A stretch of 43,515 nucleotides of DNA. Origin: Octopus sinensis. Its lineage: Eukaryota. The notes beneath the pieces were generated by a model. It was not told where the DNA came from. It did no database searches and was given only the letters and a program-made list of their open reading frames with translations. Location: NCBI RefSeq assembly GCF_006345805.1, contig NW_021835066.1, positions 1 through 43,515 of the forward strand, given 5' to 3'. Position 1 is the stretch's first letter, and each line of letters starts with the position of its first letter. Shown here one piece after another: positions 1-38,786 of this stretch. The translations under genes and the position numbers were made by a program.

Positions 1-2536
1 ACTATAGTCAATTGGTTTGTAACTGAGAACGTTGTACGATACTCGAAAATAAGCACGATGCTAATCCGCAGAAAGTAAAAAAAAAAGTACTATTTCTTAT
101 AGAAATTCATCTTGAATTTTTTCTATATATTAGAATTGGCCCTTGATTACAGATTTCAAATTGTGATTATGTGTGGTGGTATTAAGAAAAGCAAAAGTGT
201 ATATGGTGTACAAATAAACGCACCACACACACACACATATACACATACGTACACACACAATGGTGGATTAACAAAATAACCGATGGTTTCATTCGGAGAG
301 AGTATCCACAATTCTTCAAATGAAGAATAGGGCAATCGTCTCAATTTTGGATGAGAAAACACTATGTCATATTAATTGAGACAACTTGGGATTCCAAAAT
401 GAATACGTAGACAGTGGAGTTATTCTAATTGACATTTCCCTTACACTGACCCTGGGATGTGAAACCAATAAAAGAATACAGAATATATATATATATATAT
501 TATATATATTATATATATATATATAGATATATATATATATATATATATATATGCATATATATACATACTTACATACACGCACACATATATGTATATATAC
601 ATACATATACATACACATATGTATATATACAGTATAGTATTATACAGTATTATATGGAGAGTTGGGCGATGGGTAAGTAGGAAAAGTTAGATGAGAAAAT
701 TAAATTTTAAATTTAAGGTAGAACGGATGAAGATAGATTCCAAAGAAAGAAATATATACACATATACAAATATACGTGTATAGACACATGTGAGCATACG
801 TCCACACATATGTGCGTACGTACGTACACACAAACATAAACATATGTTTACTCACACACACATACTACACATACATACACACAGGTAAAATGAAACATCA
901 TGAGACTGAGTAAGATTTTCCTTCTTTTTCTTAAAATAATCCGCATCAATGCAAGTTTAAAAATAAAGAGCAACCTGAATCAAAAACAAAGGTTTCCGCA
1001 TACATACATAAATACTTACATACATACATGGCCACACATATTATTTATCTTCTTTTTGGATATCATTGGCTTACAAATTTGTTTTCAAGATAACGGACGA
1101 AGAGACAGATCTATCTGCACAAATTAAAATAACTAATTAGTTATTTTGTAAAAGACAGAATTCTGGAGGAGAAGCCTCTGAACATGCTGATTAGTTGAGT
1201 TAAACCAGAGTAGCTTAGATAGTATCTGCTGGGAATAGACGGATTAATTTGTTTGTCTTAATTAGGATTGCTTCTTCGGTCCTAAAATTCCCAATGTTCC
1301 TTTCTATGGCTTTAACAGTCATTATGATCACCTTGTCTTGACACTACGTTAGAATTTATGACAGAAAAGACTTTTGAATAAATGTGCTCATTAATGAGGA
1401 CGTGAATGTCTTGCGGTTAGTGCAACCGATGTAAGATCCGCCTCATATACAAACACACACGTATACTCAGAGCAATACTATGTTCGAAGGTGTTCCAACT
1501 TTCGTCATCTTGTCTTTCCATTTCAGCCATATATCATATCCCGTATATTCAATAATAAGTCGTATCTGTTTAAAAAAAAACGTCTGGGTTTTGATTATGG
1601 AGAATTTTAACTTCTAGCAGACTGCACAACCTCGTACTGGAATTCTTGTTGTACAAAATGTGATAGAATCTGGTTTACTTAACGATTATTTGCATATCTA
1701 TTCTTAAAAACATCCAGGTAGGTTCTGACTCGAAATATAATGGACGCAGTAGCGTACATCATAAGAGAATAACTTCCTTTTTACGACGACAGTGAGTTCA
1801 ACACTCGGCTCATCGGCGTACGGGATTCTGAGACACTGGTGTTTCACCATGCTGTGTTACGCCAGCTAGAAACACCCTGATCTTTGAGCCTAATCCAAGC
1901 CTGTTCGTTGATCGCGGCTTATATCTTCTAACCGATGAAAAAGCAAAACAGAAACGTTATCTGCACCATGTACAGTAAGATCTGGATCAATTAGTGACCA
2001 ACATATTTTGCATCCGATCCTATCTGGACGTACTTAAGAACAAAATTGCAAAAAATCGTTTCAGATCTCATTGGACTCGGTATAAATAACAATTTTTAGT
2101 TTTATCAGATTAAATGAGTTGGAACAAAACTCAAATTTAGTTCGAATGACACGCTGGAAATACTGGATATAACTCTAAATATTTCAGCTGAAATAGCAAC
2201 GAAAGACGGAAAATATGACGGACTTTATCGGTTTATAAATCTGTAAAGGATCGTTATACAGCCCCAGTCGTTTTCTACACTGAACTATCGACTCTCTGCT
2301 ACTCTTACTTAGATTTCAAAAGCTGGTCTCACCTGCCTTGCAGTATCGCCGTACCTTCAGCGATCAGAACTCGTCTAACGGCAATGTTTCACCGAGATGC
2401 GTTCTTGTCGTACATGAAAAGACAAGATTCTTTTGTTGTATTTCAAACATGACCTGGATGCAGGTGATGGAATCTGTTTATCTGAGCATTTTATCCATTG
2501 ATGATCACCCTATACAAGCATATATATATACATGCT

Positions 2537-8369: not shown

Positions 8370-8774
8370 TTATTTATAAACGCTATTTAAAGGCCAGATA
8401 AGTGTAACGCCGCCGCCATGGGGGCATCGAAAAGCCGACTGTAAGAGCCCGTTTACCATCCGGCCTCTGGCAAACAAAATATGGAAGAGTTCGGAGACAC
8501 AAAGGTTGCACTGTCTTCTGCCCCTATCAAATGGGAGGGCCACCGACAAATTGACCATTCCAGCCTATAGCTTAAGTTCGCATCCTTCAGTCGCCATATT
8601 AGCTTACTGAGTCCCGTGGTCTGGCGCTTGTTCACGTCCCGAAAAGTTGCGTAATGGTTGGAGACACGCAAAGACAATCTTGAGGACGATGCCCCTATAT
8701 AAGTGAAGGCATCTGAGTTCGTGTAAACCTTGCATTGGTAGACGGCGTTTTTTTGATCTTGGAGTTCGCCGACG

Positions 8775-8776
<2 letters not shown>
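8370..8776 (-). pseudogene. PLE-type C-terminal GIY-YIG endonuclease domain, frameshifted near 8550
   Basis: AVYQCKV...TYIGAS...LRVSNH...TGLSKLIWRLK...WSI in one frame continues as VALPFDRGRRQCNLCVSELFHIL...RMVN...FRCPH in another. This supplies VY/YIG, R, H, CxxC, E and N residues matching PLE endonucleases. Confidence 0.85.
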
Positions 8777-8829
<53 letters not shown>

Positions 8830-9234
8830 TTGGCACGGGTTGCAGTTATGCGAAAAAAATAAACTGTTCGATTAGTTGAAATGTATGCATGATATATTTG
8901 ACCTGTAAAAAACAACGGGGAAAAATTACCACTTTAGGCAAAAGCCATAAAAAATCAAAGCTATTTGCCAGCGATCCCTATGTACTAATATGTGCATTTC
9001 AACCTACATATGCTCTCATTAGTATTAGAACCTGAGCGGAACAACTACGGAATGATTGGAAGCTTTCGATTTTTTGTAAGAAATCAATAGAAATTTGAAG
9101 AATTAATTTGAAGGTATGTGATCACTATCTCTAGCAGACAGGAGACTGGGTTAGTCCATTTATTACGTATGTGTGGTTGTTTTTGGGAATGTTTTCATTT
9201 GTGTGTGCGTGTATTGTATGTGAGTATGTTTGTT

Positions 9235-11072: not shown

Positions 11073-11208
11073 TATATATATATATATATATACATACACA
11101 CACACGTACATACACACACGCACATACACACACACACACATATATATGTATGTACATATATGTATCTGTCTATATATGTATGAAAGTATGTATATATATA
11201 TATATATA

Positions 11209-11430
11209 TTACGGAGATGTACTTGCATAGCAAGTGATTTGATCTGAGATCGTGTGCTGGAACGAAAACAATTGCAGCGTGGAAGGTGTTTGTAAGCCAT
11301 TGTCAGTGAACAGATCGTGGTCTTATAGCGACGAAAATATTTTGACAAATTAAACTTAAATGTTGAAGTGGATCGAACGGCTTTTGTGTGTTTCTTAAAT
11401 GACTTAGAAACACCTTCCACACTGCAATTG
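11209..11430. mobile_element. Fold-back copy of the G3:C8-hammerhead repeat family, in (TA)n
   Basis: 11209-11300 matches 14634-14725. 11300-11430 is the same family in the opposite orientation. Arms 11269-11301 and 11398-11430 are inverted repeats. Confidence 0.85.
11300..11348 (+). ncRNA. Minimal type I hammerhead motif, G3:C8 variant
   Basis: ttgtca / GUGAACA g / atcgt ggtcttata gcgac / GAAA atat UU / tgacaa. Stem I is 6 bp and the stem III region is the palindrome AAUAUU. Confidence 0.7.
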
Positions 11431-12875
11431 TATGTATATATATTTATATATATTATCGCCACATTCCATTCCATAACAGCAATCTCTGAAGAATGCAGGG
11501 TTACATAATCGGACTGTTGCAAAGTACTCCGTTGAATTCCTTATGCCAAACCAATTAGTAGGATCGGCTGCAATGGATATACAATAATTGAGTAGTAATT
11601 GGATAGTAACGAAAGGGTTTAAGGTCTGTTATGTTGTGAAATGAAATTTTTGTCAAGGTCTTGTGAATATTATTTGCAATATAATTTTTGAATCCCACTC
11701 ATTAATCATTAGTCGCAACGACAGATCTCTTTGTGAATATTTGAATATTCAAGCAGGAATACGATTTCAATGAATACTAGGATACGATATTCATCAAGAG
11801 ATGATTGATTGAACAACAGAAGGAATTATTGAATGAATAATTAATTCATTCCTTAGTTATTCATACGTCTATTCTTTCATTGATTGACTCGTTCTGCCTT
11901 TCGTTTATATTTGTGTTTATCACTAATTTTCTTCATTAAGTATTGTCAAAAAAATTATTATTTAATAATTAATCAAAATTTTCGATGTTTTTCATTCATT
12001 ACAAATTCCCTCTTTCCTTCTTTTTTATTCCTTCATTCCCCTGTTTATTTTGCACATAATTTTTTTTTAGATTCACTTCTTGTATTTTTTTATTACTTCA
12101 ACAAATACAGTCATCAGTTGTTGTTGTTGTTGTTGTTGTTGTTGACATTTGTTGTTATCGCTTATGCCCAAAACAGATTTATCTCTGATCGAACCGTTCT
12201 TTGTACAAAGACACCCTTATGTGCAAGGAATCCCTCTACTCATACTCTAAAGAATATCAGCCTTTTTGATTTTGAAATCTCGACTACAAGATGTAGCGAA
12301 GCTTATCATATGCATTCCAGGCTAATTTCATGGGTATTAAAGAAGTTTTGCTTTCGTTAAGACAGTAGAACTATTTGGCTGTTGTTTCTAGCATTTAGAG
12401 CAACCAGATAGGGACTCTTGGTATCCATTATTTCATTCTTCAGTCATTTTCCATTTAAATTCATTCTTTCATTTTTGCACTCATTGTTTTCGATTCGTTG
12501 GAATGTTGGGTTCTTGACCATAAGGCCCTGGGTTCGATTCATACACTTGGCGAGTCCTGGTGCAACAACTCTCTCTCTCCCTAATTATCGTGTCTTCGAC
12601 GTTCCGCTCTATTAAAGAACTGGGTAGGTGTCTTGGAGTCCTGTATATGGCTGTCTAAACAACATTATAAAACTTTGGGCTAGGCACTGGGGCCACAGCA
12701 TATACAACCACATTACACTTCGATTAGCATTGGGCCTTTAAATCCCTGGCTTCTCCGAACAACTGCATATATGTTAATACCTTTAGGTGGTGCCGGGTGT
12801 CCGTGCATGCTTACAACAACATAGCTACCAAAACAACTAGCGAAAGCATTGTGCATGGTACTAAGTAACACTCTT

Positions 12876-14308: not shown

Positions 14309-14633
14309 GTCATTTTCTTTTAGTACATTTTACTTTCTCAATGTTTGAGCCCTAATATAACGAGCTCGCACAAAAAAAAAAAGAAAAAATACAGCACATA
14401 GCTAAAACCCTTACATAGATTTCAATTGGAGGGGTAGTTCATCCCTTAGATTGGTCCAGGGACCGGACGATTAAGGAACAGGCCATATTTATACGCTGGC
14501 CTCTTCCAAACACCTTCTCCACAAAATAGAATTCACTGAAGTTGTCTTCCCCCTGACCGTGGAGGTATCTACACGGTAGCTCTCAATATGCTAAAAACAA
14601 CAATTAGGTATCCCTCAATATACAATTTACTAA

Positions 14634-15082
14634 TTACGGAGATGTAGTTGCATAGCAAGTGACCTGATCTGAGATCGTGCGCTGGAACGAAAACAATTGC
14701 AGCGTGGAAGGTGTTTATAAGCCATTTAAGAAACACACATAAACCGTTAGATTCACTTCAACAATTAAATTTAATTTGTTAAAATATTTTCGTCGCTTTG
14801 AGACCGCGACCTGTTCACTGACAAAACTTCGTGCTGTATCAAATTGAAATGTTGAAGTGAATCGAACGGTTTTTGTGTGTTTCTTAAATGGCTTATAAAC
14901 ACCTTCCACGCTGCAATTGTTTCCGTTCCAGCACACGATCTCAGATCAGGTTACTTGCTATGCAAGTACATCTCCGTAATTCCGAAAGCTTGAGCCAGGC
15001 TACTAAAAAATCTGAGGAAAGCCGTTACTTGTGAGATGCAGCACGAAGTTTTGTCCGTGAACAGGTCGCGGTCTCAAAGCGC
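14634..15082. mobile_element. Non-coding hammerhead-containing retroelement insertion (inverted + permuted tandem) with 13-bp TSD
   Basis: TACAATTTACTAA occurs at 14621-14633 and 15083-15095. 14634-14840 is the unit on the minus strand. 14841-14979 is its 3' part on plus, followed by a 55-nt spacer (14980-15034) and then its 5' part (15035-15082). Confidence 0.85.
14775..14825 (-). ncRNA. Minimal type I hammerhead motif, G3:C8 variant
   Basis: Minus strand: tttgtca / GUGAACA g / gtcgc ggtctcaaa gcgac / GAAA atat UU / taacaaa. Stem II is a perfect 5 bp and stem I has one mismatch. Confidence 0.75.
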
Positions 15083-15407
15083 TACAATTTACTAAGTTAT
15101 ATTAGAAAGGAAGCATACATCGGATAAGGTAGTCCTAGATAGACTATGTCTGAAGAAACACGAATGATAAAGACACGCACGTCTTTGATTATAGGTTTTT
15201 CGATCTTGGTTTTTGTTACTAGCTGGGCCTGGAAGGAAGGGTGGTACTGTCTCTTACTGGCCCTCCTGGCCGTCCTACAGACGTGACACGAACAGAGAAC
15301 GAATTGAAACCAGTTTTATGGACTCGAGTCGTCGGATGCTTGACTTGTACACATCATCACTTCCGGTCGCTAGAGCAGACGCATATTTACAAAAATTTAG
15401 CAATTTA

Positions 15408-24556: not shown

Positions 24557-25408
24557 ATATCGGTGGTAATTGCACATTTTTAAAGCAGTTTACAATTAAA
24601 CTGCAAAATATATTGTCGATGAATTATCCGTTGAGTCCTATGGGAGGTTATAACTCTCTACACCGTGTATCTTCTCCAGAATTAACTTTGATAATAAAGT
24701 TATATATTTAAATATTGAACAAACCAAGTTATTTTCAGCATCTTGTTTGTTTTGTAATCAGACTTATCACTTTATTCCAGTTATAGTTTCAGAAAATCTG
24801 TCCTGAACTCTTGGGAAATTATAGAGTTATAATTTGAAGAATAAATACAAAAACAAGCCAGAGACTGATGATTTGTCTCGTAGCTTGACAATTTTCTATG
24901 CCGCAAAGCATAAATGATATAGAAAAAAAACTAACACACCACCGGGCGTAATAAATTCGTATCGACCAACAAAAGTATATCTATAAATTTGACTGATAGC
25001 AATAATTTGAGTAGATCTTCTGCTTTATTCTCTATTGACTGGACTATCTTTTCATTGGCAGTTAAACCAACTAATACATGTCTATTTTTATTGGTCATTA
25101 AAGCAGAAATTTCTATGCGCATGAATAAAAAGCTATTTATAATATTCTCGAATCGTTTGATATTACAATTTACGTTCTACGATTTGATGAGCTTTCGTTT
25201 TATTCCAGCCTGATTAACATTGCCTTTAATACAATTGCCAACTTTTCGTGTCAAAATGGAAACAGTTTGTTATTATATTTGAAATTTACTTCAATCAGGC
25301 ATTTTGTTTATGTAAATTCAAACCTCATAAACAATTGTCTGTATAATCATTTCCTGTCAGGGTTAGTGGAATTTCGGTACGACCAGTTTCTTCCTTTGTC
25401 TCGAAACC

Positions 25409-25712
25409 AATGGAGAAGTTCTTAAGCAGATAAGGCCGAAAATGTCGCTAGAAGCTGGGATCACCAAGCGTAGATTGGCATATTTCGGTCATATTATGCG
25501 GAGAGAATCCCTGGAGAAGGATATCATGCTCGGAATGGTCAGTGGCAAGAGAGGAAGAGGCCGACCAAGAACCCGCTGGCTTGACACCATCAGGAGTGAT
25601 ACGGGAATGGACATGGCCAGTCTGAATGAAGCGGCTCAGGATAGAACTGACTGGAGGACACTGATCCAAAGAGTGACCGAGAGTCGGCTTCGACTGAGCG
25701 GTTAGAGAGAGA
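25409..25712 (+). mobile_element. 5'-truncated RTE-clade (BovB-like) LINE with 11-bp TSD
   Basis: RLAYFGHIMRRESLEKDIMLGMVSGKRGRGRPRTRWLDTI...AAQDRTDWR is an RTE C-terminus. The stop is followed directly by (GA)n. GTCTCGAAACC occurs at 25398-25408 and 25713-25723. Confidence 0.92.
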
Positions 25713-30733: not shown

Positions 30734-30829
30734 CATATATATATATATATATAATTTTTCTATGTACGTCACTATACACACACACACACACACACAAGTA
30801 ACCACAGAAATCTACCTATCTATCTCTCC

Positions 30830-30906
<77 letters not shown>

Positions 30907-30908
<2 letters not shown>

Positions 30909-31530
30909 AGGCTTGGATGGTCTGCTCTACCAACTTTATTGTCATATGCCAGACTTGTTTGGGGGCGTGTTACTGGCTGTCTACTGCAACTGGCAGCAAA
31001 ACGGGAGTATCCTCGTCTTTGTAAAGCGAGGAGCAGTGGCACTGCTAAAGAAAGATCCAAACAAGGGGAACGTCATAGATAACTTCAGGCCCATCACTCT
31101 GTTCAACGCAGATTTGAAAATTTTGGCCAAGGTGTTAGCCGAGAGAATGGCGCTTGTCATTGAGAAACTAGTCGACAAGGCGCATACGTGCGCCGTACCG
31201 GGTAGGAGTATCCGTGACAACCTCCATCTGATACGTTACATCATAGACAGGGTAGCTACGACTCCTGGCATGAGCGGGGCGCTGATCAATTTGGATCAAT
31301 CAAAAGCTTTCGACAGGGTAGACCATCACTACTTGGAGGCGGTTCTTAAAGCGGCTGGCTTCGGTCCCATCTTCCGCGGTTGGACCGCTGCCTTATACAG
31401 CGGCATTCGCTCGGTAGTTAGCGTAAATGGTCATCTATCCAGACCATTTAACATCATGCGTTCGGTTTGTCAAGGATGCCCCAACTCGTAGCTTCTGTAT
31501 GTATTGATTCTTGAGCCACTAGCGACGCTG
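30907..31530 (+). pseudogene. L1/Tx1-clade LINE reverse transcriptase fragment
   Basis: GLDGL..Y, NFRPITLFNADLKILAKVLA, GRSIRDN, LDQSKAFDRVDH, VNGHLS, SVCQGCP motifs, then a premature stop followed by LLYVLILEPL. It starts right after (TATC)n. Confidence 0.92.
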
Positions 31531-35721: not shown

Positions 35722-36060
35722 TATTAAGCGACTACAATCCTGCGTTGGCTGGGTCATGCTCTCCGTCGTCAACCAGGAGAATTCATCTACGAAGCAATTG
35801 CCCCAGCTCCCCTTCAGGGTTGGCGAAAGCGATGTGGTGGACAACGAAAAACCTGGCTGATGACAGTCAAGGCTGGTCTGGAACCTAACGTAGGCCTCCA
35901 TATCTACGGCGTTCGCCGCTGGAATAAGGAGTGGTCGGAGATCACGCGGTCGTTAGACTCAAATCGCCAGGACTGGTCGGCGTTTGTGAGAGATGCAGCA
36001 TTGAGGATGAATGAAGCCAGCTCAACCCACCCCGGGTGAATGCTGTCAAGTCAAGTCAAA
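35722..36060 (+). mobile_element. 5'-truncated RTE-clade LINE 3' end with (CAAGT)n tail
   Basis: 35740-36039 is open: LRWLGHALRR...GWRKRCGGQRKTWLMTVKAGLEP...NRQDWSAFVRDA...STHPG*, followed by ATGCTGTCAAGTCAAGTCAA. Confidence 0.88.
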
Positions 36061-38633: not shown

Positions 38634-38677
38634 CCACTACAACTGTTTCCTGTCTTCAAATGACATTCATCAGGTGG
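38634..38677 (-). ncRNA. Minimal type I hammerhead motif (left arm)
   Basis: Exact reverse complement of 38743-38786. Confidence 0.7.
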
Positions 38678-38742
38678 ATTTCATATCTTCTATTCAATTT
38701 TAGAGACTTCATAACTTTAAAATTGAATAGAAGATATGGAAT

Positions 38743-38786
38743 CCACCTGATGAATGTCATTTGAAGACAGGAAACAGTTGTAGTGG
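38743..38786 (+). ncRNA. Minimal type I hammerhead motif (right arm)
   Basis: ccac / CUGAUGA / a tgtc atttgaa gaca g / GAAA / c agtt g / UA / gtgg. The core is complete; the first stem II position is an A.G mismatch. Confidence 0.7.

What the first reader, a model, noticed from the sequence alone, without database searches (positions are those of the whole stretch)
14621..15095. TSD-flanked, permuted ~260-nt hammerhead unit: candidate retrozyme / circular RNA element
Seen: a 13-bp TSD (TACAATTTACTAA) bounds a non-coding insert. The insert is one minus-strand unit (14634-14840), then on plus its 3' part, a 55-nt spacer and its 5' part up to HHR stem II. The plus segment therefore reads end -> spacer -> start of the same unit, giving a monomer of about 262 nt. 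Known: animal non-LTR retrozymes are tandem type I HHR units of a few hundred nt that yield circular RNAs and are thought to use PLE machinery; PLEs make tandem/inverted insertions. Inference: this is a retrotransposed copy of a multimeric or circular HHR RNA. I cannot tell whether the family is already catalogued.
Basis: partly seen in the sequence, partly recalled or inferred. Interest (0 to 1): 0.85.

Follow-up and report, generated by a model that had tools for sequence, protein, structure and literature searches.

The report
Penelope end fragment with swapped hammerhead
This 462-base insert is a rearranged scrap of the terminal repeat and first codons of an abundant Penelope-like retrotransposon in an octopus genome, likely stitched together once by its reverse transcriptase rather than copied from a circular RNA, though the family carries an unusual swapped-core hammerhead motif and has produced tandem hammerhead arrays elsewhere in the genome.

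Summary
The anatomy is real: a 13-bp TSD, a 207-nt unit on minus, then its 3' part, a ~53-nt 'spacer' and its 5' 47 nt on plus. The unit is the pLTR of a Penelope-like element (PLE), and the 'spacer' is part of its ORF start; in other copies it runs into an RT plus GIY-YIG frame. The 262-nt junction occurs once in 2.7 Gb, and the plus strand lacks the GAAA and the cut site. Family inserts end at two fixed sites (133 of 136 segments), often as inverted pairs (47 of 85 loci), as described for PLE internal priming. 869 copies, like this junction, carry a G before the unit start, likely the copy of an RNA cap. Best reading: a one-off PLE insertion with a template jump. The hammerhead is genuine in form, with a G3-C8 core where a sister family has C3-G8. 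A separate lineage of ~170-nt and ~400-nt tandem units, mostly on contig C30, fits the retrozyme idea far better.

The parts
14621..14633 (+). Left target-site duplication (13 bp; the last 2 nt also match the template)
   Evidence: family TSDs of 8-16 nt at 26 of 45 loci without (TA)n flanks
14634..14840 (-). Complete short pLTR arm (unit 1-207), its 3' end at the family's downstream end site (~U205-207)
   Evidence: 78 of 136 segments end at 193-208
14775..14825 (-). Minimal type I hammerhead with G3-C8 core, bulged G, 5-bp stem II, palindromic helix III; predicted cut between 14782 and 14781; stem I C-G pair broken at 14780 in this copy
   Evidence: 14780 differs from the family
14838..14979 (+). 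Second pLTR piece (unit ~66/73-207), head-to-head with the minus arm, 3-nt overlap at the inversion point
14888..15032 (+).
15033..15033 (+). G not found upstream of the unit in full-length copies; likely the copy of an RNA cap
   Evidence: 869 copies with G; 30 of 30 sampled have unrelated upstream DNA
15034..15081 (+). 5' end of the pLTR (A at position 0, unit 1-47), stopping inside hammerhead stem II before GAAA
15083..15095 (+). Right target-site duplication; 15080-15090 resembles the family's upstream end site (unit 137-146) with one mismatch

Best explanation
The insert is a short tandem/inverted insertion of the pLTR and first ORF codons of an abundant Penelope-like element, likely made in one event by target-primed reverse transcription from both target ends plus a template jump, and likely not copied from a circular RNA. 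Shown: the pieces are pLTR and ORF start; family inserts end at two fixed sites ~60 nt apart inside the ORF start, start at a fixed point often preceded by a non-genomic G, and often form inverted pairs with 8-16-nt TSDs. Inferred: (1) the template is a capped RNA beginning at position 0 of the pLTR; (2) the left target end primed at the downstream site (U207) and was copied to U1, giving the minus arm; (3) the right target end primed at or near the upstream site (~U140) and skipped to U47, or primed at U47, ran to the capped 5' end (G), then jumped to a second RNA at ~U257 and copied it to ~U70; (4) the two cDNAs were joined head-to-head at a 3-nt overlap. The hammerhead is a passenger in this insert.
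For: Spacer runs into the ORF in L002, L007/L008, L013, L023, L029. L031-L033 hold RT, a CxxxCxxC linker and GIY-YIG frames, and L033 is pLTR-ORF-3'UTR-pLTR ending in (TA)n. Junction unique. 133 of 136 segments end at 138-150 or 193-208; 47 of 85 loci are inverted pairs with one arm at each site; 0 of 85 carry unit-spacer-unit; 4 of 136 start at 55-65 around the hammerhead cut, against 47 at -5..6. G before the AG start: 869 copies against 1181 with A/C/T; 30 of 30 sampled G copies have unrelated upstream DNA, while 21 of 30 H copies (23 by eye) have the native upstream. Other spacer-bearing copies end at scattered points (254, 261, 278-319, 390-392, 415) and four different ORF-start-to-unit-start junctions exist. 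PMC11167929 shows two internal initiation sites, extension of both target strands, and no need for hammerhead cleavage in a purified PLE.
Against: The right end at U47 is not one of the two family end sites; the link to the upstream site rests on about 4 nt plus 5 nt of target homology. The spacer end shares GTTACTT with the native sequence upstream of the unit, and the ORF continues with TTGAGA a few bases on, so deletion by microhomology could also give the junction. The cap origin of the G is inferred from DNA only, and in some inverted pairs the G may come from the other arm. The native upstream sequence also looks like a branch point plus 3' splice site. The end tally is from the first 100 listed matches, all on C1, chosen on a 33-mer at unit ~100-132, with BLAST-called ends against one subfamily, and some loci are duplicates of each other.
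Confidence: 0.78

Rival explanations
1. A longer PLE insertion (inverted pLTR plus pLTR-ORF-3'UTR-pLTR) lost its ~4.1-kb middle, and later unit 48-137, by deletions after insertion.
For: GTTACTT is shared by the spacer end and the native sequence just upstream of the unit; the right end resembles the upstream end site; long inverted repeats are deletion-prone (general knowledge).
Against: A clean deletion at that homology would leave the native TCTCAG, not GTG-AG; the G-AG start is the family's commonest non-native start and also sits at the C30 junction; two independent deletions are needed.
Confidence: 0.11
2. The plus arm copies a linear transcript of a master locus that already had pLTR-ORF start-pLTR in tandem (a nascent non-autonomous lineage like the C30 one), now lost or unassembled.
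For: Such lineages exist: a ~400-nt junction at 6 places in 4 differently flanked loci, and a ~170-nt junction at 87 places.
Against: This junction has 1 match in the assembly; no sibling insert was found among 30 spacer loci.
Confidence: 0.07
3. One reading: copy of a 262-nt multimeric or circular hammerhead RNA (non-LTR retrozyme).
For: The plus arm does read end, spacer, start; the family has a well-formed hammerhead; retrozymes derive from PLE pLTRs (bioRxiv 10.64898/2026.07.22.740005).
Against: Junction unique; spacer is ORF; no two same-strand hammerheads here; the junction bears the G of a linear 5' start; family starts avoid the cut site (4 of 136).
Confidence: 0.04

Closest known systems
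Penelope-like elements with C-terminal GIY-YIG endonuclease and CX2-5CxxC linker (Nematis/Neptune clades; PMC8557442)
   Same: Single ORF with RT then linker then GIY-YIG; pLTRs; inverted 5'-truncated arm; 'tail' at one end; hammerhead in the pLTR; (TA)n target bias (40 of 85 loci).
   Different: Tail ~60 nt rather than 30-40; ~1-kb microsatellite-rich 3' UTR; most sampled inserts are just the ~150/205-nt pLTR end with a fixed start. Clade judged by eye (short linker like Nematis), no tree built.
Poseidon of Anolis (PAc), internal initiation of reverse transcription (PMC11167929)
   Same: Two internal initiation sites in the first part of the ORF define insert ends; ORF starts within the pLTR; AT-rich targets; both strands extended.
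   Different: Sites here lie at about ORF +30 and +90, 60 nt apart; shown here from genomic ends only; each arm of an inverted pair uses a different site.
Minimal type I hammerheads of metazoan PLEs (PMC4209133)
   Same: Extra nucleotide between 9 and 10.1, G10.1-C11.1 pair, tiny palindromic helix III, mostly single dispersed copies.
   Different: Core is G3-C8; the parts of that paper read report U3-A8 as the natural covariant, and PMC11167929 reports G3-C8 only as an engineered partial rescue. Activity untested here.
Animal non-LTR retrozymes (PMC7229834; bioRxiv 10.64898/2026.07.22.740005)
   Same: Short hammerhead unit related to a PLE pLTR, large TSD, low GC.
   Different: This insert has no two consecutive same-strand hammerhead units and no family; the C30 arrays of the same pLTR do have them.

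Membership tests
Penelope-like element (EN+), pLTR fragment | Sequence continues into an ORF with RT and C-terminal GIY-YIG | tested here: met
   RT motifs (DKSG, SMDVVSLYPSI, YVDD) and VYQI..YIGET..R..EH read by eye; Pfam gave no hit for it at E<=0.01; relatives hit RVT_1 and GIY-YIG below cut-off
Penelope-like element (EN+), pLTR fragment | pLTR on both sides of the ORF, tandem/inverted inserts with a tail | tested here: met
   L033, L032; 47 of 85 loci inverted pairs with two end sites
Nematis versus Neptune clade | CX2-5CxxC linker and RT phylogeny | tested here: inconclusive
   Linker present and short, like the Nematis rows of Fig. S2 of PMC8557442 (by eye); no tree with reference RTs
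Minimal type I hammerhead | Core, 3-8 pair, stems I-III with covariation | tested here: met
   5 of 15 pairs change on both sides between this family and a sister family, including 3-8 (5 hand-picked sequences from two lineages, so few independent events); Rfam no hit
Minimal type I hammerhead | Self-cleavage | not testable with these tools
   No assay; the window copy has a broken stem I pair
Non-LTR retrozyme | At least two consecutive units each with a complete hammerhead on one strand | tested here: not met
   One complete motif on minus, a truncated one on plus
Non-LTR retrozyme | A repeated monomer with a fixed junction in the genome | tested here: not met
   1 match for the junction, 2 mismatches allowed
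Non-LTR retrozyme | No protein-coding sequence in the monomer | tested here: not met
   Unit 116-207 and the spacer are the PLE ORF start
Non-LTR retrozyme | Monomer-size linear and circular RNA in cells | not testable with these tools
   Only assembled contigs of runs not on record as RNA were available

The most novel reading that the evidence does not exclude
The insert is a snapshot of how retrozymes are born: the PLE reverse transcriptase runs off a capped pLTR RNA, jumps to another RNA and so writes head-to-tail hammerhead units; units that land behind a pLTR promoter become non-autonomous tandem families, as the ~170-nt and ~400-nt lineages on C30 have, and their natural G3-C8 hammerhead is active and releases monomer or circular RNAs.
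Probability: 0.25. Interest if true: 0.68.

Novelty: new member of a known kind. Interest (0 to 1): 0.33.

Why it matters
The insert itself is ordinary PLE debris. The family around it is a useful natural test bed: thousands of short inserts record where PLE cDNA starts and stops (two priming sites, one per target end; a likely capped 5' end; no pile-up at the hammerhead cut), which bears on the open question of what PLE hammerheads do. It also offers a natural G3-C8 hammerhead beside a C3-G8 sister, and young tandem arrays that link an identified autonomous PLE to retrozyme-like offspring in an invertebrate.

Tried and rejected
Rfam scan of the window: 98 matches at E<=1, none a hammerhead, mostly microsatellite-driven miRNA models. 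Single-strand folding is uninformative: z -0.76 for the window motif, -1.50 for the L033 motif, which does fold into stems I and II. Pfam does not recognise the family ORF. RNA: no RNA holder listed on record; contigs of runs guessed as RNA showed no joint from the ORF start back to the unit start among the joints displayed, and contigs cannot show RNA ends or circles, so this is no evidence either way. No listed contig spans the spacer-to-start junction and no empty-site joint was among the 15 joints shown, 88 not shown; the left flank has 1 match in the assembly. Back-splicing as the origin of the junction was rejected: no GT donor follows the junction point in the ORF, and copies starting G-AG share no upstream exon (30 of 30). 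Earlier scan notes: none for this genome or sequence. Loci L165-L167 were fetched but left out of the tallies because they came from a different search. Literature searches found no paper on a natural G3-C8 PLE hammerhead (one listing each, not read), none on a cap-derived G in PLEs (0), none on this octopus family (4 listings); the library is partial, Dfam and Repbase could not be searched, and the supplements of PMC4209133 and the bioRxiv preprint, not seen, may list such variants.

Full report
Observation. The 13-mer TACAATTTACTAA lies at 14621-14633 and 15083-15095 and nowhere else in the window. Between the copies are a 207-nt unit on minus (14634-14840; called U, numbered from its 5' end), then on plus U66-207 (133 of 142 identical), about 53 nt of other sequence, a G, and U0-47. 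The described anatomy is therefore real. Two details are wrong or missing: the plus strand lacks U48-65, which hold the GAAA and the predicted cut, and the insert contains an ATG at 14888 that opens a reading frame through the 'spacer'.

Host and family. A protein labelled Octopus vulgaris matches this genome at 99%, so the host is an Octopus. A 33-mer from the middle of U has 6,458 exact matches and the hammerhead pattern 4,042, against 0 for the reversed controls. A second copy lies in this window at 11208-11431.

The spacer is the start of a PLE ORF. A genome search with the spacer scored 40 of 1,650 candidates and gave 30 loci, one being the window. In 6 of the 29 others (L002, L007, L008, L013, L023, L029; L007 and L008 hold the same sequence) the spacer runs on into coding sequence. 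Extended stretches show a 597-608-aa frame from the ATG in U to RT motif A, and downstream frames with YVDD, a CxxxCxxC linker and a GIY-YIG domain. L033 is a near-complete element: part of the 3' UTR plus U, ORF, ~1-kb microsatellite-rich 3' UTR, U1-148, then (TA)n. These motifs were read by eye; Pfam found nothing at E<=0.01, while relatives give sub-threshold RVT_1 and GIY-YIG hits. The short linker resembles the Nematis rows in Fig. S2 of PMC8557442; no tree was built.

The 262-nt junction is a singleton. A 24-nt pattern across it has 1 match in 2.7 Gb with 2 mismatches allowed, the window. Spacer-bearing copies end at scattered places in the ORF start (254, 257 here, 261, 278-319, 390-392, 415 in L033 numbering), and four different junctions back to the unit start were seen (window, L024, L026, the C30 group).

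What the family's ends say. I took all of the first 100 listed matches of the 33-mer (all on C1) and mapped them on L033. Of 136 segments, 55 end at 138-150, 78 at 193-208 and 3 elsewhere. Of 85 loci, 47 are head-to-head pairs with one arm at each site, 35 single, 3 other; none has unit-spacer-unit. 5' starts: 5 upstream of -5, 47 at -5..6, 37 at 7-22 (many an artefact of subfamily differences), 24 at 23-54, 4 at 55-65 around the predicted cut, 19 beyond. Forty loci have (TA)n flanks; of the other 45, 26 show a repeat of 8-16 nt at the ends by a rough measure. Some loci are duplicates of one another, so these are not all independent events. The pattern matches PMC11167929 (main text read): a purified PLE protein cuts and extends both strands of AT-rich DNA, starts cDNA at two internal sites in the ORF start, does not need hammerhead cleavage, and no RNA ends were seen at the cut site. 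PMC8557442 (passages) describes the inverted arm and tail as general PLE features.

The G at the junction. In full-length copies U is preceded by CTAAC..TTACTTTCTYAG. Genome-wide, 869 copies have G before that AG and 1,181 have A, C or T. All 30 sampled G copies have unrelated upstream DNA, where G makes up 40 of 270 letters at -2 to -10; 21 of 30 sampled H copies (23 by eye) have the native upstream. So roughly seven in ten copies that begin exactly there carry a G absent from the element. By analogy with the extra G of full-length L1 copies (recalled) I read this as the copy of a cap on an RNA starting at that A; an internal pLTR promoter is documented for Penelope (PMC2377424, passages). 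The same upstream sequence also looks like a 3' splice site, and the Penelope intron ends at hammerhead helix I (PMC4209133, parts 1-2 of 4 read), so another kind of capped end is not excluded. The window junction reads TTGT-G-AGATG, the signature of a linear 5' start rather than of a circle.

Mechanism. Shown: identity of the pieces, the two end sites, the fixed start, the G, TSD sizes. Inferred: the left target end primed at U207 and was copied to U1; the right end primed at U47, or at the upstream site with a skip to U47 (15080-15090 differs from U137-146 by one base), reached the capped end, jumped to a second RNA at ~U257 and copied to ~U70; the arms were joined at a 3-nt overlap. Against this, the right end is atypical and the spacer end shares GTTACTT with the native upstream sequence, which leaves room for later deletion of a longer insert.

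The hammerhead. The motif has stem I, core GUGAACA, a bulged G, a 5-bp stem II, GAAA and a palindromic two-pair helix III, the form of PLE minimal hammerheads in PMC4209133. The core GTGAACAG was found in 51 of 60 sampled copies. A sister PLE family in the same genome (55% protein identity) has the same layout with core CUGAUGC. On an alignment of 5 hand-picked copies, 5 of 15 pairs change on both sides, including 3-8 (G-C against C-G), a stem II pair and a helix III pair; two lineages give few independent events, and the pair-count control was not exceeded (77 of 500 shuffles). G3-C8 is reported as an engineered partial rescue in PMC11167929; my searches found no report of it as a natural PLE variant. 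The window copy has a broken stem I pair at 14780, and activity is untested.

Where the retrozyme idea does fit. A junction defining ~170-190-nt units (U5-146, (TA)n, a 10-nt linker) has 87 matches, nearly all on C30 and unplaced contigs. The 20 loci fetched plus L035, L037, L038 have different flanks apart from two apparent duplicate pairs, arrays of up to 24 units, outer ends mostly at the family's two end sites, first units often at U0-2, and at least one clear TSD (L239). A ~400-nt unit (U plus ORF start, again with G-AG) occurs at 6 places in 4 differently flanked loci, twice in a row in L039. These meet the operational definition of the bioRxiv preprint 10.64898/2026.07.22.740005 (parts 1-3 of 5 read; supplements not seen), which argues that animal retrozymes derive from PLE pLTRs. 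The longest array has lost G3 in all 20 of its minus-strand units listed, which points to amplification without an active ribozyme. PMC7229834 (passages) does not mention octopus.

Verdict. An ordinary, one-off PLE end insertion; not a retrozyme by the features tested. New member of a known kind, interest 0.33, carried mainly by the family-level side findings.

Noticed in passing
G000:C30 11.1-15.1 Mb and unplaced contigs (L229-L248, L035-L039): Tandem arrays of ~170-190-nt hammerhead-bearing pLTR units, 87 junction matches, up to 24 units per array, different flanks, PLE-type ends; a subset carries a ~400-nt unit. Best retrozyme candidate of this family; concentration on one chromosome unexplained.
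   Followed up: partly
genome-wide: 869 copies begin with a non-genomic G before the AG start of the pLTR unit, a likely cap signature.
   Followed up: partly
L249:4639-4686 and other loci L249-L259: Sister PLE family with intact-looking frames of up to 1,120 aa, an Asn-rich insert and a hammerhead with C3-G8 but C at position 9.
   Followed up: partly
window 11208-11431: Second, canonical inverted pair of the same pLTR (ends at U207 and ~U146) in a (TA)n site.
   Followed up: yes
window 8453-8845 minus: Fragment with a GIY-YIG-like motif (VYQCKV..YIGAS..R..NH), probably from another PLE family; Pfam gives no hit.
   Followed up: partly
L087, L114, L138, L141, L158, L159 (G000:C1): The same inverted-pair insert with an identical internal junction at six places on C1, so it was duplicated or carried inside a larger mobile unit.
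   Followed up: no
L033:1010-1044 and other full-length copies: Sequence just upstream of the unit looks both like a branch point plus 3' splice site and like an initiator.
   Followed up: partly
window 30802-31491 plus; 25367-25705 plus; 35728-36039 plus: Fragments resembling non-LTR retrotransposon RT and C-terminal regions.
   Followed up: no
window 38650-38770: A long near-perfect hairpin (sub-threshold miRNA model hits), probably a palindromic repeat or MITE.
   Followed up: no
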